The notes: generated by a model not told the origin, from the letters alone. Positions 5,823-53,857 are shown, counted from the first letter of the stretch. The stretch: 64,000 bases of DNA from Oscillospiraceae bacterium (GCA_018380115.1 JAGZUF010000002.1:110281-174280), one strand, 5' to 3'. Numbers and translations are program-made.

Positions 5823-6357
5823 CATACCCTCAAGTCAGCCCCCCCCCGGCACAGCCTGGGGCTTGCGTAAGCTCTGGAAGGGCATATACCGGCAAGCCTC
5901 TCAAGAGGCGCTGAATTCCCTGTCTCCTGTATTATTTGCTACGCACCCCGTAAACGGGGTGCTTCCCATTACATGCTGCATCTTTTGGGTGTTGAATACC
6001 ATCCCGCTTCGCCCGAAACTGACAGCGAAAGCCTTTTCACTCTCCCCGGCCAGCCGGGGGGCGTTTCGCTAAAGCTGGCCAAATCAAACCCACCGGCTGG
6101 GCCGGTGGGTTTGGCTGACATGATAAGCGCCCGCTGCAGGCATTTCGCGCAAGGCGCGCGAGGGCTTATTTCGCCCGTTCCCCGGCGCTGCAGCCCGCAA
6201 ACGAGCATCCGACAAATTTTCATGTCCGGCCGGCCCGCTGCCGATGGTCCGCTTCGCCCGGTGCCTGAAGCAAGGGCGCCTTTACAGGGCGGGCCAGCCG
6301 GTGGCTTTTTCCTTCCCAAAAAGCGCCACCCCGGCTACGGCCGGGGCGGCAGGGGCT
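5823..6357. repeat. Copy A of a novel ~260-bp GC-rich module arranged as a ~535-bp long imperfect palindrome (left arm 5823-6082, central perfect hairpin 6083-6112, inverted diverged right arm 6113-6357)
   Basis: Nucleotide-level homology to 40645-41195 and 50221-50480. Central hairpin CAAACCCACCGGC-tgg-GCCGGTGGGTTTG. The right arm reverse complement retains the terminal CCCCGGC-N-GCCGGGG hairpin. Confidence 0.6.
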
Positions 6358-9163: not shown

Positions 9164-10149
9164 CGCGCTGCGCCCCCTTTCCCACGTCGGCGTGAGGCGA
9201 ACAGCCTGTCCAGAAAGCCGGTCAGCGCATTTACGCCCAGCACGGCAAAGCACACGCTGTTGTCGTAAGTGCCGAAATAGCGGAACATCATGGCCATAAA
9301 GCCCATCAGCACCCCATAGGCGAAGTGCGCCTTTGTCACCCGCGGGCGGGTGACGGGCTCGTTCACAAGAAACACCCCGGCAAACAGCAGCGTGCCGGTG
9401 AGCAGCTCATATTTTACAGACTGGTAACGCAGGTACAGCTCCTGCCAGGGCCAGGCAAAGCCCACATTGCCGACACGCGGGAAGAAAAACGCCACACACA
9501 CAACGGCAAGGAAAAAGCCTGCGGGAATAGACAACGTAATATCCCGCCGCACCCACAGATACAGTGCGCAGGCAATAATCACCAGCACCGCCGTGGTGCC
9601 GATGGCGCCCGCGTAGTTTCCCAGCACAAGGTCCAGCGCGCGCAGGTTGGGCGTGCCGCCCGCGCGCAGCGCCATGGCGGGCGATTCCACCAGTGTGGCG
9701 TTCTGCGTGCTGGCAATGGTGAGTTGTGTAAAGGGCGCCGGGTAACGAAATACCTGCTGCGGCCAGCTTTCCGCAACCACAGCATAGCCCAGTGCCGAGG
9801 GGTTGAAGGGGTATTCGCCCCAGCCTCCGAACGCTTCTTTTCCCAGCACCACGCCCACGGCCACAGCTACCACCACAATATAATAGCTTACCGAAGCGGG
9901 CAGCATCATGGTGGTGACAAGCGCCATGGGGATACTGGAATTCTCGGCCGAATCGTGTGTGCGGCCGCGCATCCACGCCGTGAGGTGGTCGCACGCCACA
10001 GCTGTGGCCACCGCCACGCAGCACATCACGGCGGGCCGCCCGCCGTACAGATAACAGGCTACCACCAGCAGCGGCAGCATCATGAAGATGATGTCACGGT
10101 TTGCCTCGCGCGCGGGCGGCGCGCTGGGCAGGCTGTAAGTACCGTTCAT
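9160..10149 (-). CDS. rnfD: RnfD/RsxD (NqrB-like) membrane subunit
   Basis: 329 aa; the EYPFNPSALGYAVV block matches the NqrB/RnfD family. Sits 18 bp downstream of rpe. Confidence 0.8.
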   Translation of the reverse strand: MNGTYSLPSAPPAREANRDIIFMMLPLLVVACYLYGGRPAVMCCVAVATAVACDHLTAWMRGRTHDSAENSSIPMALVTTMMLPASVSYYIVVVAVAVGVVLGKEAFGGWGEYPFNPSALGYAVVAESWPQQVFRYPAPFTQLTIASTQNATLVESPAMALRAGGTPNLRALDLVLGNYAGAIGTTAVLVIIACALYLWVRRDITLSIPAGFFLAVVCVAFFFPRVGNVGFAWPWQELYLRYQSVKYELLTGTLLFAGVFLVNEPVTRPRVTKAHFAYGVLMGFMAMMFRYFGTYDNSVCFAVLGVNALTGFLDRLFASRRRGKGGAAR

Positions 10150-16742: not shown

Positions 16743-16775
16743 AAAGGCACAGCCCGGCAGGGCTGTGCCTTTTAT
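16743..16775. terminator. Bidirectional terminator between mtnN and the gntR-like gene
   Basis: AAAAGGCACAGCCCGGCAGGGCTGTGCCTTTT palindrome. Confidence 0.5.
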
Positions 16776-16816
16776 ATTTCTATTCGGCCGCCGGCCTGTA
16801 TCCCGGCCTCCATCAG

Positions 16817-34700: not shown

Positions 34701-34949
34701 GGTATAAAGGGAAGCGGGGTTTAGGCGCCGTTTTTCGCAAAGGACAGATTTAATTTGAACTGCAGGAAGCGCCTGTTTGTATACGGCGCAGGCATTGCCT
34801 GCCTGACGGGCAGCGCAGCGGTGCATGCGGCACCGTGCAGGCAGGACAGAATTCAGCTTTCCATATAAAAAGGCAAGGTACACCCGTGTATAGAACGGGT
34901 GATTGTATCTATATCCCGGCGCAGGGGCTCCGTGAAGCCCGCGCCTTTT

Positions 34950-35916
34950 TATGTTTCTTTTATTTTGTGCCGTTGAGTGCATTCTCTGCCTTCGGGATGA
35001 AAATGCCGGGCACATCTTTGGCGGGTGCCGCTGTTTTTCCCTGCACAGTGCGCAGATATGGGCACGCAGGGCCCGTGCTCCTGTTTATTGTGCTTTGTGC
35101 ACAGGCGTGCAGTTCCAGCTTCGCCTGTTCCCGGTTGTATGCAGAGAAAACACGGGCCTCTGCGGGGTGCGCGTCGTTTGCATCTCTTTTATTTTGTGCG
35201 GCATTACACATCCTCACGCCTTCGAGGCGGGAACCGGCATTTTCCGCCCCAACCCCTATTATGAACAAGGCTGTAAAAAGGCATGGAACCCGGCAGCTTT
35301 CACTGCCGGGCCCCATGTCCCCTGCTGGAAGAAAAAGAAGTTAAGCTTTTGCCTTGTGCTCCCTGTGCGGGCGCACGGGCACGCCCTTTCCGCACGCAGG
35401 CGCACGGGCCCGGTTCTGTACGTTCCCGGCCAGCCTGCGGATGAGCCTGCAAGATGCCAGAGGCCCCGGCAGTTTTTTGACTGCCGGGGCCTCTGTTGCA
35501 GGGATATGAGAAATATGAGGAGATAGGCTTGTTTTCTGTGCTCCCTGTGCGGGCGTATAGGTGCACCTTACTGGCCGAAGGGCCGCGTTATTTGGGCGTG
35601 CCGTTTCGGCACACGGGCAGGCGTTATAAGCCCTATGTAGGAACATAAACGCACCCTTTCGGGCTCGGAACAGGCGTTACAGCCCCGGCGGCCGAAGCCG
35701 CCGGAGGGGGGCAGGCCGCACCAGTTAGAAGAAAATATGAGAAGATATGCTCGTTTTCTGCGCGCCCTGCGCGGGCGCGCGGGTGTGCCTTACAGCCCGA
35801 AAGGCCGCGTTATTTGGGCGTGCCGTTTCGGCACACGGGGCGGGCGTTATAAGCCCTATGTAGGAACATAAACGCACCCTTTCGGGCTCGGAACAGGCGT
35901 TACAGCCCCAGAAGTG
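34950..35916. repeat. Degenerate tandem array, about five units of 160-230 bp; the two distal units (35497-35685 and 35727-35916) are nearly identical over about 150 bp
   Basis: Recurring blocks: CTTTTATTTTGTGC / TTTTCTGTGCTCCCTGTGCGGGCG / GGGCCGCGTTATTTGGGCGTGCCGTTTCGGCACACGGG…GCGTTATAAGCCCTATGTAGGAACATAAACGCACCCTTTCGGGCTCGGAACAGGCGTTACAGCCCC. Internal hairpins GTGCCGtttcGGCAC and GCCCGAAAGG…CCTTTCGGGC. Confidence 0.6.
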
Positions 35917-37707
35917 CGCGCACATCCTGCCAGAACCCCTGCCAGCCGTCCACGGCCGTTTTCGGGTTCGGCTTCTGCCCGGCTGGCGCCCCTGTGCCGC
36001 CGGGGGCGGCAGGCGGGTCCGCCTTTGTCACCGTCAGCGTGGCCGCATTCGAATATGCCTCTATGGTTTTCTTCGTCTCTGTGCCGTCCGCGCCGACCTC
36101 TGTGTACGTCAGCGTCACCTTGCAGCGGTACTGTGTGCCGCTTTGGCCCAGCGCCGTGCTGGCCAATGTGTAGGTGCTCTGAAGCCCCACGGCGCCCCAG
36201 CCGTCGTTTTCCGCCAGCGTGCGGGCGGCCTGCGGCTGCTTCACTTCCCAGCTGTAGCCCAGTGTGCCCAGGCCATGTTCTGACACGGCCTGCACCGCAA
36301 AGGACGCGCTCTGTCCCTCTTTCACGGTCATGCTCTGCGGGTGCGCCGTGAGCGTAATGCCCGGCACAGCCATGCCGGATTCATCCTTTTCCTTCACGCC
36401 CAGCGTAAGCTTCGTGATGCCGGAGACGGGGATGTTTGCGCCGAGCGCATACGTCTTGCCGTTGTCCGCTATCCAGATGAGGCTGTCTTTTCCGGGGCTG
36501 TGTTGCTTCCCGCCCACGCAAGGTCTTCATAAGCGGGCCGGTTGATGTTTTCAGCGCCCTCCGCCATCACCACATTCATGGTTTTAACAGGGCCCGCCTC
36601 GCCCTCATAGCCGCCGTCCCGCGTCTTCAGCTTGAACTGGCCCAAATCCAGCGCCACGGCATGCAGGCTGTTCTCCTGCCCCAGCGGCACTTCGAAAACG
36701 GGGCGCAGCCCCATACCGCTTCCATTGCTCGCGAATGGGAAACGACCCTCATAGTCTGTAGATTTATAGGCTGTCTTTTGATCATTCTGATGTTTTCCTT
36801 TTGCCCCCGGGTCTTGCGCCCAAGAACCTGTCCACGCCGGGTTTTTCACATAGCCCCTGCTATTCATTAAAGAATATTCACTATTAGGCAGCCAGTTAAA
36901 TTCGTCTCCTTGAACCCAGGTTGCACCGCATGAAAGCGCCCGTGCCTTATATGTTATGCCGCCCACCTTATAATCCTTGCCGAAAATAAGGCCAGCACTG
37001 TTTGCCTCATTCCAGTTTGGCCCGTCTGTCAGCACATGGTTGCTCAGGAATATCTGGTGCTCATATATACTGCCCAGTTCTTCTGAATCTTCTTGCTGCT
37101 CGCTTACCTTTTGGCTGTCCCCCAGATTTACCGCCTGGTCAGTCAGCACATAGGCATTGATAGTGCCGCTGAAGGTGAAGGGCACCCACTTCAGGCCAGC
37201 GTGGACTTTGTGTTCACGAACTTTATAAGTTGTAAATTTCCCGCCCTCTGTATTATTGTCATCCATGGGGAACCAGTACGTCTGCCCCGCCACGGGCAGG
37301 TTTGTGCTTACCTGCGCGCTGCCGCCGTCGCTGCTGCTTTCCGAACTGCCCGCTGCCTGCGGCTCGGGTGCATCCGCCTCTTCCGCAGGCTGCACGGCCT
37401 CTTTTTCCTGTGCAGGCAAAGACGCCTCTGTTTCCCCCGCCGGGGCAGAGGCTTCTTCAGCCGGGGCCGCCTTGTCTTCCTCCGGCGCGGAGGACTGCGC
37501 CTGTTCCGGCGAAGAGCTGGCCGGGGCGTTTTCCTGTGCCGGGGCGCTGCCCGCGCCTTCTGCGGCCTGTGACGGGGACAGCGCCGCATCCGCAGGCTCC
37601 TCTGCATACATGGGCACCGCCGTGCACAGCGTCAGTGCCGCCAGCGCACCCGCCAGCAGGCGGCGCCATACCCTGCCGCACACGCGGCTTTCCGTTTGCT
37701 GTTTCAT
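35900..37707 (-). pseudogene. Secreted protein gene (signal peptide, Ala/Glu/Pro/Ser-rich linker, unknown domain, C-terminal Ig-like/Big_2-like domain) interrupted by a frameshift near 36470-36500
   Basis: ORFs 36469..37707 and 35900..36517 overlap in different frames across GGGCGGGAAGCAACACAGCCCCGGAAAAGACAGCC. The domain continues across the junction. RBS GGAAGGAGAAAC before 37707. Confidence 0.55.
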
Positions 37708-38761: not shown

Positions 38762-40615
38762 ATGAGCAGAAAGCAGAAGAGAGGGCTTGCCCGCATTGGT
38801 GCGGGCGCCGTGCTGCTGGCGGCGGCATGGCTGCTGCCGCTGGAGGGGTGGGCCTCGCTGGCGGCCTTCGCCGTGCCCTATGCCGTGGTGGGCTGGGATG
38901 TGCTGTGGAAGGCCGTGCGCAACATTCTGCACGGGCAGGTGTTCGACGAAAACTTTTTGATGGCGCTGGCCACCGTGGGCGCGTTTGCCACGGGCGAATA
39001 TTCAGAGGGCGTGGCGGTTATGCTGTTCTACCAGATAGGCGAATGGTTTCAGCGCTATGCGGTGGGGCGCTCGCGCAAGTCTATTACAGCGCTGATGGAT
39101 ATCCGGCCGGACCACGCCAACCTTGTGGGGCCGGACGGCACCGCGCAGGAGGTAGACCCTGATGAAGTAAGCGTGGGCAGCACCATTCTGGTAAAGCCGG
39201 GCGAGCGTGTGCCGCTGGACGGCACCGTGCTGGACGGCGACAGCATGCTGGACACAGCGGCCCTCACCGGTGAAAGCGTGCCGCGCCACGCGGCGGCGGG
39301 TGACGCCGTCGTCAGCGGCTGCATCAACGGCAGCGGGCTTCTGCGCGTGCGGGTAGATAAGCCGTACGGTGAATCTACCGTGGCCAAAATTCTGGACCTT
39401 GTGGAAAACGCAGGCGAGAAAAAGGCCAAGGCAGAAAACTTTATCACAAAATTTTCCCGCTGGTACACCCCTGCCGTGGTGATAGCGGCGCTGGCGCTGG
39501 CCGTGCTGCCCCCGCTTGTGCTAGGCGGCGGCTGGGCCGGCTGGGTGCACCGCGCGCTTATCTTCCTTGTCATCAGCTGCCCGTGCGCGCTTGTCATCAG
39601 CGTGCCGCTGTCTTTCTTCGGGGGCATCGGCGGGGCCTCCCGGCGCGGCATTCTGGTGAAGGGCGGCGCGTATATGGAGGTGCTGGCCAATACCGGCACT
39701 GTGGTGTTCGACAAAACGGGCACGCTGACAAAGGGCGTGTTCAGCGTGACGGCCGTGCACCCGCATGAAATAGACAAAGCGCAGCTTGTAGAGCTGGCCG
39801 CACTGGCCGAAAGCTATTCCACGCACCCCATTGCGGCCTCGCTGCGCACGGCCTACGGCCAGGCGCCCGACACCGCGCGCGTGGCAGATTATGAAGAGCT
39901 CTCCGGCCGGGGAGTGCGCGCCAAAGTGGACGGCCGCACCGTATGCGTGGGCAACGGCAGGCTGATGGACGAGGCCGGTGCCGAATGGCACGAATGCCAC
40001 CTGACGGGCACGGTGGCGCATGTGGCGGTGGACGGCCGCTATGCCGGGCACATTGTCATTTCCGACGAGGTGAAGCCGGACGCCGCCGCAGCCATTGCCG
40101 CGCTGAAGGCGGCAGGCGTGCACAAGACGGTGATGCTGACGGGCGACGCCAAAGAGGTGGGCGAAGCCGTGGCAAAGCAGCTTGGCATAGACGAGGCGCA
40201 CACACAGCTTCTGCCCGCCGGCAAGGTGGAGCATATGGAACAGCTGCTGGCAGGCCAGCCGAAGGGCGAGGCACTTGCCTTTGTGGGTGACGGCGTGAAC
40301 GACGCCCCGGTTCTGGCCCGCGCCGATGTGGGCATCGCCATGGGCGGCATCGGCTCTGACGCAGCCATAGAGGCCGCCGACGTGGTGCTGATGGACGACA
40401 AGCCCTCGAAGCTGGCCGAGGCCGTGCGCATCTCGCGGCGCACCCTGCGCATTGTGCATCAGAACATCGTGTTCGCGCTGGCAGTGAAGGCGCTGGTGCT
40501 GGTGCTGGGCGCGCTGGGCATGGCTAATATGTGGGAGGCCGTGTTTGCAGACGTGGGCGTGATGGTGCTTGCCATTCTGAACGCCATGCGCGCGCTGAAG
40601 GCGCCGCGGGAATAG
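38762..40615 (+). CDS. P1B-type heavy-metal translocating ATPase (CPC motif; Cd/Zn/Pb-type likely) lacking its own N-terminal HMA domain
   Basis: TM CPC (SCPCALVISVP), DKTGTLT, HP (SYSTHPIAAS), GDGVNDAP; 617 aa. Confidence 0.95.
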   Translation: MSRKQKRGLARIGAGAVLLAAAWLLPLEGWASLAAFAVPYAVVGWDVLWKAVRNILHGQVFDENFLMALATVGAFATGEYSEGVAVMLFYQIGEWFQRYAVGRSRKSITALMDIRPDHANLVGPDGTAQEVDPDEVSVGSTILVKPGERVPLDGTVLDGDSMLDTAALTGESVPRHAAAGDAVVSGCINGSGLLRVRVDKPYGESTVAKILDLVENAGEKKAKAENFITKFSRWYTPAVVIAALALAVLPPLVLGGGWAGWVHRALIFLVISCPCALVISVPLSFFGGIGGASRRGILVKGGAYMEVLANTGTVVFDKTGTLTKGVFSVTAVHPHEIDKAQLVELAALAESYSTHPIAASLRTAYGQAPDTARVADYEELSGRGVRAKVDGRTVCVGNGRLMDEAGAEWHECHLTGTVAHVAVDGRYAGHIVISDEVKPDAAAAIAALKAAGVHKTVMLTGDAKEVGEAVAKQLGIDEAHTQLLPAGKVEHMEQLLAGQPKGEALAFVGDGVNDAPVLARADVGIAMGGIGSDAAIEAADVVLMDDKPSKLAEAVRISRRTLRIVHQNIVFALAVKALVLVLGALGMANMWEAVFADVGVMVLAILNAMRALKAPRE

Positions 40616-40644
40616 CACCTCCGGCGCATATTCAAAGTCAGGCC

Positions 40645-41195
40645 CCCGGCAAAGCCGGGGGCTTGCGTATGCTCTTCCAGGGCATACGCAAGCCTTTCAA
40701 GAGGCACTGAATGCTCTGTCTTTTGCATCACTTGCCCCGCCTCCCGCAAACGGGGTTCCTCCCGCTGCGTGCTGCCTCTTTTTGGGATTGAATGCCATCC
40801 CGCTTCGCCCGGAACTGACAGCGAAAACCTTTTTACTCTCCCCGGCACAGCCGCGGGGTGGCGTTTTGCTAAAACAAATAAAACAGGCAGGCGGCCTGCG
40901 GGTTCCCCCGCAGGCCGCCTGTTCTGTGTTTCGTTATATGCTTTGACGATATCCCCCCTGCTGGGGCGGGGAAAAGCTTCCGCCTCAAACAGCGGGCGAA
41001 GCGGGGAATGGAAAGCGGCCTCGCGGCCAGTAAAAAAGGCCTTCTGAAAAAGCAGTGCCCGTTTACGGGCTGCCGTGCAGGTGATGCAGGGGGCGGGTTC
41101 TATTCCATGCCTTCTGAGGGGCCTGCCGGCACAAAGCGGCACTTTCAGAGCTTGCGCACGCCCCGGCTTTGCCGGGGGACATGGTTAAAAAAGCC
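40645..41195. repeat. Copy B of the ~260-bp module family arranged as a ~550-bp long imperfect palindrome (left arm 40645-40887, central perfect hairpin 40888-40925, inverted right arm 40926-41195)
   Basis: Left arm homologous to 5823-6082 and 50221-50480. The reverse complement of the right arm aligns to the left arm (CCCCCGGCAAAGCCGGGG, CCCGTAAACGGG, CCCGCTTCGCCC blocks). Central hairpin ACAGGCGGCCTGCGGG-ttcc-CCCGCAGGCCGCCTGT with T-runs on both strands. Confidence 0.6.
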
Positions 41196-41562: not shown

Positions 41563-42429
41563 TCACCCCAGCATGGGCTTCAGCAGAAGGAAGTAAACCA
41601 GCACCACGGCGCCCAGCACGATGCGGTACCACCCGAACACCTTGAAATCGTGCCGCTTCACATAGTTCATCAAAAAGCGGATGGCCAGCATGCTCACCAG
41701 AAAAGCCGTCAGCATGCCCACGCCCAGCACGGCCAGCTCGGCAGCAGAGAAGGAAAGGCCGAATTTCAAAAGCTTGATAAGGCTGGCGCCCGCCATGACA
41801 GGAATGGCAAGAAAGAAGGTGAACTCTGCCGCCAGCGTGCGCGAGCAGCCCAGCAGGATGCCGCCCAGAATAGTGGCGCCGGAGCGGGACGTGCCCGGCA
41901 CGAGGCTGAGCACTTGAAACATGCCGATGCCGAACGCGGCCGCCCAGCTGAGGCTTTCCACCGTGGCCATTTTCACCCGGCGCGGGTTCGATTCCACCAC
42001 AATGAACAGCACGCCGTACAGAATGAGCATGGCGGCCACCACGGGCGGGTTGTGCAGGTGCTCGGTCATCCAGTCGTCCAGCGGAAGGCCTATAACCATG
42101 GCGGGCAGAACGGCTACCAGCACCTTGAACCACATCACCCATACGTCCTGCCTGCAATAGCGGCGCACAAGGTAGTGCCCTGCGCCCTCGCCGTTGTGGC
42201 GCACGGCCCTGCGGTTGCAGAAGGGCCAAAGCTGGCCCCAGAACAGCACCACCACCGCCAGAATGGCCCCGAACTGTATGACCACGTCGAACATTTCCTT
42301 GAAGGCGTCCGACATGCCCAGCGAGATGAACTCATCCGCCAGAATGAGGTGCCCCGTGCTGGAGATGGGCAGCCATTCCGTAATGCCCTCCACAATGCCC
42401 AGAATGGCCGCTTTCAACAAATCTAGCAT
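41563..42429 (-). CDS. uppP: Undecaprenyl-diphosphate phosphatase
   Basis: BacA/UppP blocks EWLPISSTGHL and GTSRSGATI. GGAGG RBS before the ATG at 42429. Confidence 0.9.
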   Translation of the reverse strand: MLDLLKAAILGIVEGITEWLPISSTGHLILADEFISLGMSDAFKEMFDVVIQFGAILAVVVLFWGQLWPFCNRRAVRHNGEGAGHYLVRRYCRQDVWVMWFKVLVAVLPAMVIGLPLDDWMTEHLHNPPVVAAMLILYGVLFIVVESNPRRVKMATVESLSWAAAFGIGMFQVLSLVPGTSRSGATILGGILLGCSRTLAAEFTFFLAIPVMAGASLIKLLKFGLSFSAAELAVLGVGMLTAFLVSMLAIRFLMNYVKRHDFKVFGWYRIVLGAVVLVYFLLLKPMLG

Positions 42430-42498
42430 AATAGAAAAACCTCCGTTTTTTGGGCGCCCGCGCACAGGGCGGGACGCGCCGCCTGCCGCGCCCGGATG

Positions 42499-49916: not shown

Positions 49917-50220
49917 TCCAGAACACCCCTTTGCCCGCCCCGCGCGCCCCTGACGGCGCCGGGCGGAAATGTCACACATCCCGCGCGCGGGCATGCGGCG
50001 GACATGCCCGCCTGCACAGCCGCAGCACTCGGAAAGCTGTCAGCTTTATCATAGCACAAACCCGCCGGAATGGAAAGCGACAAAGTCACACAGCGCCGCG
50101 CCGGGCGGCGGCCCTCTTCAGACTTTCCTCTGCTTCAAGTTACGGCCCGCAAAATAGAGCGCGCCTCCATTGTGCGGCGCGCCGCGCCGCCGTATAATAA
50201 AGGCAGGCCGGCATGAACTA

Positions 50221-50480
50221 AAGTCAGCCTCCCCGGCAAGGCCTGGGGCTTGCGTAAGCCCCCTGGAAAGGCATACTGCCGGCAAGCCTCTCAGGAGGCA
50301 CTGAATGCTCTGTCTCCTGCATCACCTGTCCCGTCCCCCCCCCGTAAACGGGATTCTTGCCCCCCTTGCGTGCTACATCTTTTTGTATTGTATACCATCC
50401 CGCTGCGCTCGAAGCTGGCAGCGAAAGCCCTTTTACTCTCCCCCGCACAGTGGGGGAGTGTCGTTTTGCGAAAGTAAAAA
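50221..50480 (+). repeat. Copy C of the ~260-bp module family: single arm only, ending exactly at the RBS of the XRE-TPR gene
   Basis: Aligns to 5823-6082 (closest) and 40645-40887. No central hairpin or inverted arm; instead AAAAACAGAGAGG RBS and the ATG at 50498. Confidence 0.55.
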
Positions 50481-50497
50481 ACAGAGAGGAACTGCTA

Positions 50498-51573
50498 TGA
50501 AATTTCAGGATATTGTACGCCAGAAGCGCAAAGAACTTGGCCTTACGCAGGAGCAGGCAGCCCGCAGGCTGGGCGTTTCGCCGGCTGCCGTGAGCAAGTG
50601 GGAAAGCGGCCAAAGCCTGCCGGACACGCCCCTGTTCGCCCCGCTGGCAAGGCTTCTGCACACAGACCTCAACACCCTGCTCTCTTTTGAGGAAGAGCCG
50701 GACGACGCGCGCATGGCGCAGCTTTTGAACGAGACCGCCCGCCTGCTTCAGGCAGAGGGCTTTGAGGCGGCTTTTGCCTATGCCATGGACGTACTGCGGG
50801 AATATCCCTCCTGCGATATGCTGGCCTACGGCTTTGCCGCCTCGCTGCTGGGCGGGCTGGAGATGGCCCCGCCCGCCGCCGGGCGCGAAGCCTTTGAAGC
50901 AGAGCTGGACGCGCTTTTAGAGCGCGCGGCACAGGCTGCCAGTACCGAAGTGCGCATACCTGCCCAGCAGCTTTTAATCAACCGCTGCATTCAAAAGAAG
51001 GACATCGCCCGCGCCGAAGCGCTTTTGGGCCAGCTGCCGCAGGCCTCGTTCAACCCCGTGCTTGTCCGCGCTTCCATCCACCGCGCCAGGGGCGAGGACG
51101 AACAGGCGGCCCGCCTGCTGGAAGGGTTTGTGGCGCAGAGCGCGTCCAGCCTGGAGGCGGTGATGATGCAGCTTTGCGCCATTGCGCTGCAAGAGGGCGA
51201 CGCGCAAGCCGCGCAGGCCATTGCGCACACGGCGCAGGAGGCCCACCGCCTGCTGGGAATGTGGGGCCCGGGCATGGCAACGGCCATGCTGCAGCTGTGC
51301 GCGCAGAAAAAGGACATGCCCGGCACGCTGGCGCATCTGGAAGAATTTCTGGCCGCGCTGCGGCAGCCCTGGCAGGTAAACGCCACGCCGCTGTACCGCC
51401 ATACGCCCGCCAAAAGCGCAGACCTTGGGCCCAGCTTTGCCGCCATGATAGCACGCGGCCTGCGGGAGGACGCAGATTTCGCCTTCCTGCGCGGCAACGC
51501 GGAATTCGAGGCCATACTGCAAAAATTTGAACAGGCGGCAGCCCCCGGGCCGAAGCCGGCAGAGGGCCCCTGA
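50498..51573 (+). CDS. XRE-family HTH transcriptional regulator with a C-terminal TPR-like helical domain (RNPP-like architecture)
   Basis: HTH LGLTQEQAARRLGVSPAAVSKWESGQ followed by about 290 aa of Ala/Leu-rich helical repeats. RBS AGAGAGG. Upstream in-frame extension in the ORF track rejected. Confidence 0.8.
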
Positions 51574-51835
51574 ACGCCGAACCGGGCCGGGCACCTCGGC
51601 TCCCGGCCCGCAGGTGAGGGCCCGGCCGGCCTTCGCAAATGCGCCCGCCCGGCTGCCTGTATAGGTAGCCGGGCGGGTGCATTTTTCTTCATGGATGGCG
51701 GCTCAAAGCGCGGCCCAGCGGAGAGGCATACACCGCAGGCGCAGCAGCCCGGCCGAATACCGGCACACCCGCTGCATGTGCGGGCCGCGGCCGCCGCAAG
51801 GCAAGCCCCGCTTCGGCCTGCAGGGCCAAGCCGCG

Positions 51836-53857
51836 CTAATTCAGGGACGTTTTTTCCGCAAACAGGCGCTGAGCTGCCGCGCGCAGGGGCGCATTCTCTT
51901 CACTTTGCAGTGCAGGGTCCCTTTCCAGCAGGGCCTGCGCCTCGCTTTGCGCAGCATACAGCGCGCGCGTATCTGCGGCCAGGTTCGCCACACGCAGGCT
52001 GGGCAGGCCGTGCTGGCGGCTGCCGAAAAAGTCGCCGGGGCCGCGCGTCTCCAAATCGAATTTGGCTATTTCAAAGCCGTCTGTGGTATGGCACAGAAAC
52101 GACAGGCGTTTTTTAACGCTGTCCGTCACATGGTCTGAAATCAGGATGCAGAAAGCATCGCCCCGCCCGCGCCCCACGCGCCCGCGAAGCTGGTGCAGGG
52201 CGGAAAGGCCGTAGCGCTCGGCGTTTTCAATGACGATGCAGTTTGCATTGGGCACGTCTACCCCCACCTCGATAACAGTGGTGGAGACAAGCACGTCCAG
52301 TTCATGCGCCTTAAAGCTCTGCATCACAGCCATCTTTTCCGGGCCCTTCATGCGCCCGTGAAGAAGGCCGATGCGCCTGCCGGGCAGCAGCGGCCGCGCC
52401 ACCTCATCAATATAGGCCGCGGCAGCCTGCATATCGCTTTCGCCCTCTTCTATCAGGGGGCACACAATATATGCCTGCCGCCCCGCGCTGAGCTGGCGGG
52501 CCAGAAAGCCGTACATATCGGCACGCTTTCTGCCCGTGATGGCATATGTTTTCACCGGGGTGCGCCCGGGAGGCAGCTCGTCCAGAACAGAAATGTCCAA
52601 ATCGCCGAATAACAGCAGCCCCAGCGTGCGCGGGATGGGCGTGGCGCTCATCACGAGCAGGTGGGGGTTATCGGCCTTGTCGGCCAGCGCGGCGCGCTGG
52701 CGCACGCCGAAGCGGTGCTGCTCGTCCGTCACGGCAAGGCCAAGGCGCGCAAATTCTACCCCCTCGCCCAGCACGGCGTGCGTGCCCACCACAAGCTGCG
52801 CCGCGCCCGTGCGGATAGCGTCCAGCACGCTTTGGCGCGCCGCGCCCTTCACCCCTGCCGTCAGCAGGGCAACGGAAATGCCCAGTGGCTCCAGCATATC
52901 CGCCAGCGTGGCGGCGTGCTGTGAGGCAAGTATCTCCGTGGGGGCCATCAGCACGCTCTGGTAGCCGTTCTGCGCAGCCATATACACGGCCGCGGCCGCC
53001 ACCAGCGTTTTGCCGCTGCCCACATCGCCCTGCAAAAGGCGGTTCATAGGGCTTTGACCCGCCATATCGCCGGCTATCTCCTGCACGGCGCGGCGCTGTG
53101 CACCCGTGGGGGCAAACGGCAGCGCGGCCCAGAAGGGGGCAAAACCCACCTCATGCATCTGCGCGCCGGTGCGCACAGCCTCGCGCCCACGCAAAAGCAA
53201 AAGCCCCAGCTGAAGCACCAGAAGTTCTTCGTAAATCAGCCGCCTGCGCGCCGCATGCACCTCGGCCATGGCGCGCGGGAAATGCATGCTGCGCACCGCC
53301 TGGGCCTTGCTGCACAGGCGGTATTTTTCTACCATCCAGGCCGGCAGAGGGTCCTGTATATGCGGCATGGCCTCGAATGCCGCGCGCACATACTTTTGAA
53401 TATTTCTGCTGTTCAGCCCCTCTGTCTGCGGGTAGACGGGCACGAAGGGCGTGGCCGACGCCTCGGCAGGCGACACCACCGTGGGGTTTACCATTTCGCG
53501 CTGGGAAAAGCTGCCCGCCACCTTGCCGAAGAAGAGATAGCTGCGCCCGGCCTCCAGCTTCTGGGGGGCATACCGGGTGTTGAAATAGGTAAGCACAAGG
53601 CCCGCCGTCTCGTCGCCCGCCATCACACGCGCCATCAGCCTGCCGCCCTTCACGCGCACCGGTGCGTGCTTCTCGTACACCTGCGCGCGCACCACGCATT
53701 TTGTATCAAATGGGGCGCTGGCCACCGGATAGGGCTTTGAGTAATCCACATAATCGCGCGGGTAAAATTCCAGAAGGTCTTCCACGGAATGGATGCCCAG
53801 CTTTTCCAGAAGTGCAGCGCGCTTTTCGCCCACGCCTTTCAGGTAGCGGATCTCCAT
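51836..53857 (-). CDS. recG: ATP-dependent DNA helicase RecG
   Basis: Wedge domain plus SF2 helicase (GDVGSGKT, DEQHRFG, motif VI QLRGRVGRG). Start at M8 (53857) with a GGAGG RBS. Confidence 0.9.
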   Translation of the reverse strand: MEIRYLKGVGEKRAALLEKLGIHSVEDLLEFYPRDYVDYSKPYPVASAPFDTKCVVRAQVYEKHAPVRVKGGRLMARVMAGDETAGLVLTYFNTRYAPQKLEAGRSYLFFGKVAGSFSQREMVNPTVVSPAEASATPFVPVYPQTEGLNSRNIQKYVRAAFEAMPHIQDPLPAWMVEKYRLCSKAQAVRSMHFPRAMAEVHAARRRLIYEELLVLQLGLLLLRGREAVRTGAQMHEVGFAPFWAALPFAPTGAQRRAVQEIAGDMAGQSPMNRLLQGDVGSGKTLVAAAAVYMAAQNGYQSVLMAPTEILASQHAATLADMLEPLGISVALLTAGVKGAARQSVLDAIRTGAAQLVVGTHAVLGEGVEFARLGLAVTDEQHRFGVRQRAALADKADNPHLLVMSATPIPRTLGLLLFGDLDISVLDELPPGRTPVKTYAITGRKRADMYGFLARQLSAGRQAYIVCPLIEEGESDMQAAAAYIDEVARPLLPGRRIGLLHGRMKGPEKMAVMQSFKAHELDVLVSTTVIEVGVDVPNANCIVIENAERYGLSALHQLRGRVGRGRGDAFCILISDHVTDSVKKRLSFLCHTTDGFEIAKFDLETRGPGDFFGSRQHGLPSLRVANLAADTRALYAAQSEAQALLERDPALQSEENAPLRAAAQRLFAEKTSLN

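What the first reader, a model, noticed from the sequence alone, without database searches (positions are those of the whole stretch)
50221..51573. Half-copy (single arm) of the 260-bp module ends exactly at the RBS of an XRE-TPR (RNPP-like) regulator gene
Copy C matches the left arm of copies A and B through to GTCGTTTTGCGAAAG. Where A and B continue into their central hairpin, copy C instead continues into AAAAACAGAGAGG (RBS) and the ATG at 50498 of a 358-aa XRE-HTH + TPR-like protein. So either the regulator gene replaced, or was inserted into, the element's centre, or the module serves as this gene's 5' region. If the module is transcribed, it would form a long structured 5' leader for the regulator. 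The regulator's architecture (XRE HTH + helical repeat domain) is that of peptide-sensing RNPP/Rgg-type regulators. No small peptide ORF is evident downstream (51573-51836 holds only a terminator hairpin at about 51640-51690).
Basis: partly seen in the sequence, partly recalled or inferred. Interest (0 to 1): 0.6.

Follow-up and report, generated by a model that had tools for sequence, protein, structure and literature searches.

The report
IS200-derived miniature transposon in regulator leader
The "half module" in front of the regulator gene is a complete 256-bp, transposase-less copy of an IS200-type insertion sequence that landed between the gene's promoter and its ribosome-binding site in this lineage only; this is an ordinary kind of mobile-DNA insertion, not a dedicated regulatory leader.

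Summary
The repeat is real. Window 50221-50476 matches copies at 5832-6079, 40635-40874 and 40933-41187 (nhmmer E 1e-55 to 1e-75). It is a whole unit, not a half. The "central hairpins" of A and B are unrelated host intrinsic terminators, and B's "right arm" is a second, inverted copy.

A closely related Ruthenibacterium MAG (about 95% identical) carries at least 26 loci with the repeat. Read on the opposite strand, its two ends match the left and right ends of intact IS200-group insertion sequences (158-aa Y1 transposase). It has similar subterminal hairpins at both ends and no transposase gene.

Copies are present or absent between strains. Window 16770-16790 is an empty site that is filled in the MAG.

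Copy C lies between a conserved promoter (TTGTGC-17-TATAAT, 50170-50198) and the RBS of the regulator (ATG at 50497, not 50498). Orthologous loci at 81% and 78% protein identity keep the promoter and a ~45-nt leader but have no element.

The regulator is XRE-HTH plus a TPR-like domain. Its best fold matches are PlcR, ComR and Rgg2. No peptide gene was found.

Verdict: a new member of a known kind (IS200/IS605-derived MITE/PATE). Any effect on the regulator is inferred only. Interest is low.

The parts
50170..50198 (+). Sigma-70-like promoter of the regulator: TTGTGC, 17-nt spacer, TATAAT
   Evidence: Read directly from the sequence. CCTCCATTGTGC-N17-TATAAT is conserved upstream of the orthologues in L030/L031 and L045, which lack the element. 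The consensus scan did not flag it because the -35 hexamer matches only 3 of 6.
50199..50220 (+). Remnant of the ancestral 5'UTR (AAAGGCAGGCCGGCATGAACTA), lying left of the insertion
   Evidence: It aligns with the L045 leader AAAGCTGACCGGCCGGGACAAC. The MAG orthologue L007 has a 21-nt deletion across this junction.
50221..50476 (-). Copy C: a complete IS200-group miniature element with no tnpA. In transposase orientation it is on the minus strand, with the RE terminus (..CCTGACTT) at 50221-50228 and the LE terminus at about 50475.
   Evidence: nhmmer covers model positions 6-254 of 254, E 4.5e-74. The ends are homologous to the LE and RE of intact IS200 elements. The element is absent from orthologous loci.
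50231..50248 (.). RE subterminal hairpin, CCCCGGC-AAG-GCCTGGGG
   Evidence: All 7 pairs are kept in 28 of 28 copies. It aligns with the RE hairpin CCCCCGGCTTTGCCGGGGG of the full-length IS.
50438..50458 (.). LE subterminal hairpin, CTCCCCCGCACAGTGGGGGAG. On the + strand it is followed by TGTCGTTTTG, so it looks like a terminator about 40 nt before the start codon.
   Evidence: The terminator scan flags it. It aligns with the LE hairpin of the full-length IS. It is 89% paired across copies, with one G-C to A-U compensated pair. The LE hairpin of Salmonella IS200 is a bidirectional terminator (PMC4513863).
50476..50489 (+). A-tract (complement of the T-rich target next to the LE) followed by the RBS AGAGAGG
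   Evidence: Five full-length IS copies at independent sites have NTTTG immediately 5' of the LE. L030 and L045 have AAAACGGAGGG and AAATTTAGGAGG at the equivalent place.
50497..51573 (+). 358-aa XRE-HTH plus TPR-like (RNPP-like architecture) regulator gene
   Evidence: Pfam HTH_3, E 9.5e-15. 179 homologues were found, some carrying TPR Pfam hits. The AF2 model has pLDDT 93.4 and is all-helical. Foldseek best hits are PlcR, ComR, Rgg2 and PrgX.
51637..51684 (+). Intrinsic terminator of the regulator gene
   Evidence: a 20-pair stem followed by a T run.
5832..6079 (-). Copy A of the miniature element. A host hairpin at about 6088-6117 lies next to its LE.
6080..6276 (-). Possible degenerate tandem copy (A2); low confidence
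   Evidence: nhmmer E 0.013, model positions 7-206; repeat pair I6.
40635..40874 (-). Copy B, starting about 20 nt after the stop codon of the P-type ATPase gene
40884..40921 (.). Host bidirectional terminator hairpin between convergent genes. The LEs of B and of the inverted copy flank it on either side.
   Evidence: The hairpin sequence is unrelated to the hairpins next to other copies.
40933..41187 (+).
   Evidence: nhmmer E 1.3e-55; repeat pair I1.
16770..16790 (.). Empty site. The MAG orthologue (L005 7553-7812) carries a copy here, between a gene end and the same terminator hairpin.

Best explanation
The sequence at 50221-50476 is one complete copy of a ~256-bp non-autonomous transposable element, a MITE/PATE derived from an IS200-group member of the IS200/IS605 family.

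Anatomy. It keeps the left end (~70 nt) and right end (~130 nt) of such an IS, each with a similar subterminal hairpin in direct orientation. These hairpins are the kind of sites that a Y1 HUH transposase (TnpA) binds on single-stranded DNA. The element has no tnpA, so it would have to be moved in trans (inferred).

Targeting. This IS group sits immediately 3' of a T-rich ..TTTG motif. That motif is usually the T-tail of an intrinsic terminator, which is why nearly every copy abuts a host terminator hairpin.

Copy C. At the regulator locus the T-run used was the complement of the A-rich spacer just upstream of the Shine-Dalgarno sequence. The element therefore landed between the -10 box and the RBS, antisense to the regulator, in the recent ancestor of this species-level lineage.

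Consequence (inferred, not shown). The regulator mRNA now carries a ~290-nt leader instead of ~45 nt. About 40 nt before the AUG, that leader includes the LE hairpin followed by a U-rich stretch. This hairpin may partly terminate or otherwise lower expression. The juxtaposition with the RBS reflects target choice, not a dedicated regulatory design.
For: Repeat family.
- There are 4 to 5 copies in the window.
- A strict pattern hits 26 loci in one Ruthenibacterium MAG and essentially nowhere else among 185,579 species genomes.
- About 29 near-full and 20 partial copies are present in those loci plus the window.

Mobility.
- The window is about 95% identical to the MAG.
- Yet the MAG site L005 7553-7812 is filled where window ~16780 is empty, with the same host terminator.
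- The orthologous regulator loci L045 and L030/L031 are empty.
- L030 also lacks the B and Brev copies.

IS200 parentage.
- The split copy in L013 encloses a TnpA pseudogene (Pfam Y1_Tnp, E 2.5e-27).
- Intact 158-aa tnpA genes (P0134, P0177, 'IS200/IS605 family transposase') are flanked by sequences that match the element in reverse orientation. Model positions 8-141 match directly after the stop codon (E ~1e-20). Positions 209-254 match about 90 nt before the ATG. Alignments A4 and A5 show this.
- No tnpA is present in the window.

Hairpins.
- The RE hairpin is invariant.
- The LE hairpin is 89% paired, with one compensated pair.

Terminator adjacency.
- By inspection of the folds, 27 of 29 copies have a strong hairpin next to the LE.
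- Flank MFE has a median of -34.4 against -19.6 kcal/mol for controls, p = 1.8e-11.
- Five full-length IS copies at independent sites show hairpin..NTTTG|TTAGC.

Literature.
- PATEs are gene-less IS200/IS605 derivatives that share LE and RE (PMC10055086).
- The IS200 LE hairpin is a bidirectional terminator (PMC4513863).
- Terminators lying immediately upstream of an IS are most over-represented for the IS200/IS605 family (PMC13548323).
Against: - The ~90-nt interior of the short element does not align with the interior of the sampled full-length IS copies, so the direct parent has not been found.
- Only a tnpA pseudogene was seen in the sampled parts of the sister genome, so current mobility is unproven.
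- The exact LE boundary and target motif rest on five IS sites and one filled/empty pair that also differs by a few extra bases.
- Nothing here shows transcription, termination or any change in regulator expression.
- Copy C alone does not fold better than shuffled sequence (z = -1.47). This argues against an evolved RNA but says nothing about the terminator idea.
Confidence: 0.9

Rival explanations
1. The module is a dedicated structured 5' leader (riboswitch-like or protein-binding cis-regulatory RNA) of the XRE-TPR regulator.
For: The element lies between the promoter and the RBS and would be co-transcribed. It contains several hairpins, one of them terminator-like just before the RBS.
Against: The regulator's orthologues at 81% and 78% identity have no element. 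All other copies (27 of 29 near-full ones) are not upstream of any gene start but abut terminators. There is no Rfam match. Folding is no better than shuffles (z = -1.47). Covariation is weak apart from the transposon-end hairpins. One strain (L033) carries a 16-nt deletion inside the copy.
Confidence: 0.04
2. The repeats are a multi-copy family of independent small-RNA genes, or 3'UTR elements, transcribed on the reader's strand. Each would end at its own intrinsic terminator, and copy C would be one that lost its terminator.
For: Several copies start a few nt after a stop codon, for example B after the ATPase gene.
Against: No conserved promoter lies upstream of the copies. The adjacent hairpin pre-exists at the empty site. 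Full-length IS copies with tnpA show the same hairpin adjacency on the opposite strand. This is the known IS200/IS605 pattern. End homology to IS200 LE and RE explains the conservation. Passive read-through transcription of copies in 3'UTRs is not excluded.
Confidence: 0.05
3. The element is a PATE that carries a guide-RNA (omega RNA) scaffold for a TnpB or IscB nuclease encoded elsewhere. The variable flank would serve as the guide.
For: PATEs often encode omega RNAs (PMC10055086). The element is about 250 nt, has conserved hairpins, and is followed by variable sequence.
Against: The related full-length elements encode only tnpA (158 aa) and no tnpB or iscB. There is no Rfam hit, including HEARO-type models. 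The variable flanks are terminator hairpins, not arbitrary 16-20-nt guides.
Confidence: 0.01

Closest known systems
PATEs / IS200-IS605-derived MITEs (gene-less derivatives reported in Haloquadratum, Geobacillus stearothermophilus and Halanaerobium)
   Same: The element has no protein-coding gene. It retains LE and RE with subterminal hairpins homologous to those of a tnpA-carrying IS. It is multi-copy and present or absent between close genomes. It has no terminal inverted repeats and no evident target duplication (PMC10055086).
   Different: It derives from the IS200 group (tnpA only), so no omega-RNA or TnpB link is expected. This particular family, expanded in a Ruthenibacterium lineage, is to my knowledge uncatalogued (my own knowledge; ISfinder was not searchable here). 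The direct autonomous parent was not found.
IS200 of Salmonella / IS1541 of Yersinia (IS200 group, about 700 bp)
   Same: The related full-length elements are of similar size: a 158-aa Y1 TnpA, a LE hairpin 25-45 nt from the end, and an RE of ~130 nt. The IS200 LE hairpin acts as a bidirectional terminator (PMC4513863). Terminators just upstream of the IS are typical of this family (PMC13548323).
   Different: The window copies lack tnpA and are only ~256 bp. The sequences are unrelated to enterobacterial IS200 apart from the TnpA family.
REP/BIME (REPIN) elements mobilised by RAYT Y1 transposases
   Same: These are also hairpin-based, intergenic, high-copy elements handled by HUH Y1 transposases, often near gene ends.
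   Different: REPs are 20-40-nt palindromes arranged as inverted pairs. Here the unit is ~256 bp with two direct-orientation hairpins and clear LE/RE homology to an IS200 element.
RNPP-type peptide-sensing regulators (PlcR, ComR, Rgg, PrgX, NprR). This comparison concerns the gene next to the element.
   Same: An N-terminal XRE HTH plus a C-terminal TPR-like helical-repeat domain. These proteins are the best PDB fold matches.
   Different: TM-scores are low (0.2-0.3), sequence identity is 8-15%, and no adjacent peptide gene was found. Membership is unproven.

Membership tests
IS200/IS605-family non-autonomous element (MITE/PATE) | Both ends are homologous to the LE and RE of an IS that encodes a Y1 HUH transposase (TnpA) | tested here: met
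   The nhmmer profile of the repeat hits RE (E ~1e-20) and LE (E 1e-3 to 1e-6) flanking intact 158-aa tnpA genes in L034-L043, in reverse orientation. Alignments A4 and A5 confirm this. TnpA matches Pfam Y1_Tnp.
IS200/IS605-family non-autonomous element (MITE/PATE) | Subterminal imperfect palindromes at both ends in direct orientation, with no terminal inverted repeats | tested here: met
   CCCCCGGCAAAGCCGGGGG lies near one end and CCCCGGCACAGCCGGGGG near the other, on the same strand. They are 100% and 89% paired across 28 copies.
IS200/IS605-family non-autonomous element (MITE/PATE) | No transposase gene inside the element | tested here: met
   The unit is ~256 bp. tblastn with TnpA finds nothing significant in the window (best E 0.2) and only the L013 pseudogene in the MAG loci.
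IS200/IS605-family non-autonomous element (MITE/PATE) | Insertion 3' of a short conserved target motif next to the LE, with no target-site duplication | tested here: inconclusive
   Five full-length IS copies at independent sites show NTTTG|TTAGC. The miniature copies show TTTKG-like runs. One filled/empty pair shows no duplication but differs by about 5 extra nt. The exact cleavage sites are not defined.
IS200/IS605-family non-autonomous element (MITE/PATE) | Multi-copy, with presence/absence polymorphism between close relatives | tested here: met
IS200/IS605-family non-autonomous element (MITE/PATE) | Excision and integration catalysed in trans by a cognate TnpA on single-stranded DNA | not testable with these tools
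   This needs in vitro cleavage or in vivo excision assays. An intact cognate tnpA was not found in the sampled DNA of this lineage.
Cis-regulatory leader RNA / riboswitch of the regulator | Conserved association with the downstream gene across relatives | tested here: not met
   The element is absent upstream of orthologues in L045 (81%) and L030/L031 (78%). Other copies are not upstream of genes.
Cis-regulatory leader RNA / riboswitch of the regulator | Covariation-supported RNA structure or a match to a described RNA family | tested here: not met
   No Rfam match at gathering score or at E<=10 beyond chance hits. RNAalifold gives a weak consensus. Only 5 of 27 tested pairs change on both sides, no more than in shuffles. 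z = -1.47.
RNPP family of peptide-sensing regulators (for the adjacent gene) | N-terminal XRE-type HTH DNA-binding domain | tested here: met
   Pfam HTH_3, residues 7-59, E 9.5e-15.
RNPP family of peptide-sensing regulators (for the adjacent gene) | C-terminal TPR-like peptide-binding domain with an RNPP fold | tested here: inconclusive
   The AF2 model (pLDDT 93.4) is all-helical repeats. The top Foldseek PDB hits are PlcR, ComR, Rgg2, PrgX and NprR, but with E only 1e-4 to 1e-2 and TM 0.2-0.3. Generic TPR proteins score similarly.
RNPP family of peptide-sensing regulators (for the adjacent gene) | Cognate small secreted signalling-peptide gene next to the regulator | tested here: not met
   Only Arg/Pro/Ala-rich spurious-looking ORFs lie in 51575-51835. 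The equivalent spacer in L030 is about 170 nt and unrelated. A distant or very short peptide gene is not excluded.
Omega-RNA-bearing PATE (TnpB/IscB guide RNA) | Parent IS encodes TnpB or IscB, and the element carries its guide-RNA scaffold | tested here: not met
   The related full-length IS copies encode only tnpA. There is no Rfam hit.

The most novel reading that the evidence does not exclude
The insertion has been co-opted. The IS200-type LE hairpin plus U-tract, about 40 nt before the AUG, would act as an attenuator or processing site that sets the level of the RNPP-like regulator. Alternatively, the leader could yield a stable transposon-derived small RNA, as the Salmonella IS200 5'UTR does. 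Separately, this IS200 group may actively recognise terminator hairpin plus T-tail as its target. That would give a mechanistic basis for the family-wide 'terminator upstream of IS' pattern.
Probability: 0.1. Interest if true: 0.4.

Novelty: new member of a known kind. Interest (0 to 1): 0.15.

Why it matters
Mostly for annotation. A ~256-bp repeat with tens of copies in a gut Ruthenibacterium lineage can be filed as an IS200-derived miniature element, read on the strand opposite to the one it was first described on. It should not be filed as a two-armed module, an sRNA family or a riboswitch-like leader.

The analysis explains why the copies sit beside terminators. It also explains why one copy 'ends exactly at the RBS': the element targets T-runs.

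It gives a clean natural pair, lineages with and without the insertion behind the same promoter. That pair could be used to test how such an insertion changes expression of a putative quorum-sensing-type regulator.

No open question is resolved by this finding.

Tried and rejected
(1) Known RNA family. Rfam at gathering score over the whole window and at E<=10 over 50100-50600 gave only sub-threshold chance hits (M23, E 0.36; mir-4899).

(2) tRNA or tmRNA: none found.

(3) Phage origin: the pattern scan of viral contigs gave 0 hits.

(4) Independent sRNA genes with their own terminators. This was my working idea. I dropped it once the empty site and the IS200 end homology appeared.

(5) The short element retains the tnpA C-terminal codons (PFTG). 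This was suggested by translation. MAFFT instead aligns that hairpin with the IS's post-stop hairpin, so I do not rely on it.

(6) Window 50198-50219 is a local duplication of the element's end (my note). This was wrong. L045 shows it is ancestral 5'UTR, and the MAG copy has a 21-nt deletion.

(7) My first hairpin-adjacency script used thresholds too loose for GC-rich DNA and was uninformative. I replaced it with an MFE comparison.

(8) Target-site duplication: none was consistent across copies.

(9) L032 (the 81% orthologue with a 447-aa call) has an unrelated upstream sequence at the contig end, so it is uninformative.

(10) The metagenome scan, the remaining structure and fold jobs, and the 1.84-billion-protein search were not used, because the identification did not need them.

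Full report
**1. The observation**

The region was read directly. Window 50221-50476 belongs to a repeat family with further copies at about 5832-6079 (A) and 40635-40874 (B). There is also an inverted copy at 40933-41187 (Brev).

A profile built from the four copies finds them at E 1e-55 to 1e-75. It covers model positions 6-254 of 254 in copy C. A 23-nt probe from the element has no chance expectation in the window.

AAAAAACAGAGAGG and an ATG follow. The ATG is at 50497-50499, not 50498. The 50498 frame contains 10 stops, and the ORF 50497-51573 gives 358 aa. So the similarity and its end point are real, but three descriptive points are wrong, as shown below.

**2. There is no two-armed module**

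I extracted 29 near-full copies with their flanks, from the window and from a sister genome (see section 3). These hairpins are unrelated in sequence from copy to copy.

- The "central hairpin" of B (40884-40921) is the shared terminator of two convergent genes: a P-type ATPase at 38762-40615 and UppP/BacA at 41563-42465.
- B's "right arm" is simply a second copy in inverted orientation on the other side of that terminator.
- What follows A is at most a degenerate tandem copy (6080-6276, E 0.013).
- The unit is therefore a single ~256-bp element, and copy C is a whole one.

**3. A dispersed, lineage-restricted, mobile repeat**

A strict 22-base pattern from the element was scanned over one genome for each of 185,579 species. 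It hit 29 stretches. Of these, 26 came from one MAG, Ruthenibacterium sp. C039_43. The other three (Streptomyces, Opitutaceae, Angelobacter) gave no hit to the element profile. nhmmer finds about 45 full or partial copies in those 8-kb loci, often tandem, convergent or nested.

The window is 90-97% identical (about 95% over the longest blocks) to that MAG over syntenic blocks, yet copy content differs. The MAG has a copy at L005 7553-7812, between a gene end and a terminator. At the equivalent place, ~16780, the window has the same terminator but no element.

A more distant syntenic relative (L030, regulator 78% identical) has no copy at any of the B, Brev or C positions.

**4. What the repeat is**

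The element has no Rfam match. It carries two similar hairpins in direct orientation:

- CCCCCGGCAAAGCCGGGGG near one end
- CCCCGGCACAGCCGGGGG near the other

One MAG copy (L013) is split by about 710 nt. On the opposite strand, that insert encodes an IS200-type transposase pseudogene. The repaired protein matches Pfam Y1_Tnp at E 2.5e-27.

Its closest intact homologues are 75-80% identical and 158 aa long. One is named "IS200/IS605 family transposase". I fetched them with their flanking DNA. In all eight loci the repeat profile matches in reverse orientation:

- directly after the tnpA stop codon (model positions 8-141, E about 1e-20), which is the right end;
- about 90 nt before the tnpA start (model positions 209-254), which is the left end.

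Alignments A4 and A5 show the homology base by base, including both hairpins and the terminus ..CCTGACT(T). The window contains no tnpA.

The repeat is thus a transposase-less derivative of an IS200-group insertion sequence. This kind of element is known as a PATE or MITE of the IS200/IS605 family (PMC10055086).

The interior ~90 nt does not match the sampled full-length elements, so the direct parent is still unidentified.

**5. Why copies sit beside terminators**

In transposase orientation the host hairpin lies just 5' of the left end.

- By inspection of the folds, 27 of 29 copies have a strong hairpin there.
- The 65 nt next to the left end fold much more stably than random 65-mers from the same DNA (median -34.4 against -19.6 kcal/mol, Mann-Whitney p = 1.8e-11).
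- Five full-length IS copies at independent sites all read hairpin ... NTTTG|TTAGCTTAAGCGG. The miniature copies show equivalent TTTKG runs.

I infer that the target is a short T-rich motif ending in G, typically the T-tail of an intrinsic terminator. The pre-existing hairpin at the empty site shows that the hairpins belong to the host.

This context is already described. Terminator-like sequences immediately upstream of ISs are most over-represented for IS200/IS605 (PMC13548323).

**6. Copy C and the regulator**

Upstream of C lies TTGTGC-17-TATAAT (50170-50198). The same CCTCCATTGTGC-N17-TATAAT is conserved in front of the orthologous regulator in L045 (81% identity) and in L030/L031 (78%, same M20-peptidase/regulator/RecG synteny). 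There it is followed by a ~45-nt leader and the RBS, with no element.

The element is present in the close relatives L033, L044 and the MAG (L007).

- L033 carries a 16-nt internal deletion.
- L007 carries a 21-nt deletion across the right-end junction.
- These deletions speak against strong constraint on the sequence.

Window 50199-50220 aligns with the L045 leader and is ancestral UTR. The element therefore inserted into the 5'UTR, antisense to the regulator. Its left end lies against the A-rich stretch that precedes the Shine-Dalgarno sequence, which is the complement of a T-run target. That accounts for "ends exactly at the RBS".

On the regulator's strand the left-end hairpin (50438-50458) is followed by UGUCGUUUUG and is flagged as terminator-like. 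The homologous hairpin of Salmonella IS200 is a bidirectional terminator (PMC4513863). Partial attenuation of the regulator is therefore a reasonable but untested inference.

Copy C as RNA does not fold better than shuffled sequence (z = -1.47). Pair counts show conservation of the two transposon-end hairpins but no more double-sided changes than shuffles.

**7. The regulator**

- Pfam finds only the N-terminal HTH_3. Some of the 179 homologues carry TPR Pfam hits.
- An AlphaFold2 model from a 46-sequence alignment is confident (pLDDT 93.4) and all-helical.
- Its best PDB matches are the RNPP regulators PlcR, ComR, Rgg2, PrgX and NprR. These come at modest E-values (8.5e-5 to 3e-2) and low TM-scores (0.2-0.3), and generic TPR proteins follow closely.
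- No credible small ORF lies between the gene and RecG. The equivalent spacer in L030 is unrelated.

The RNPP-like architecture is supported. Membership in the family is not established.

**8. Verdict**

The finding is a real repeat that was mis-segmented and read on the wrong strand. It is a complete IS200-derived miniature element, inserted recently into the 5'UTR of an XRE-TPR regulator.

This is a new member of a known kind. Interest is low. The only mildly interesting residue is the testable possibility that the insertion attenuates the regulator.

Noticed in passing
window 35336-35909 (within 34926-37683): Two to three tandem units of about 180-220 nt (86-99% identical over 72-107 nt). 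They lie in an intergenic stretch, inside a ~2.7-kb segment that the ~95%-identical MAG lacks. There is no Rfam hit, and Tandem Repeats Finder reports nothing. They are unrelated to the IS200-derived element.
   Followed up: partly
L013 1700-2330: The IS200 tnpA pseudogene inside the split copy is itself interrupted by two tandem ~75-nt low-GC repeats (..GGGATATATKAAATGACAGC..GTATCCCTATCACTACTAT..). It also has an in-frame stop. This may be another tiny nested element.
   Followed up: no
window 16770-16790 versus L005 7553-7812: A clean empty/filled pair for the miniature element. The same host terminator (GGCACAGCCC..GGGCTGTGCC) is present at both. The empty site carries about 5 extra nt (ATTTC) that the filled site does not.
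   Followed up: yes
L033 ~9170-9190 and L007 ~425-432: Strain-level deletions inside or at the edge of the copy upstream of the regulator. L033 has lost 16 nt (AAGCCTCTCAGGAGGC) between GGCA repeats. The MAG has lost 21 nt across the right-end junction, which places TATAAT directly against the element.
   Followed up: partly
L015, L016, L017, L025, L027: A subfamily of the element with a different ~40-nt central module (ATCTTTCTGGCAATCGTAAAGYTGTTAATCTCTTCC) but the same ends.
   Followed up: no
L009 6506-6990, L026 866-1412, L028 1339-2161, L021 7594-7989: Copies cluster as tandem, head-to-head or partial nested arrays. This suggests repeated insertion next to earlier copies, whose own hairpins may mimic the target.
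   Followed up: no
L032 1-330: The 81%-identical regulator orthologue is called as a 447-aa protein, because an unrelated open frame runs into its start at the contig end. This is either a rearrangement or an assembly chimera.
   Followed up: no
window 50305-51573: The regulator's reading frame stays open for 64 codons upstream into the element (a 422-aa ORF from an ATG at 50305). Gene callers may over-extend the protein. Several database homologues (447-476 aa) look over-extended in the same way.
   Followed up: partly
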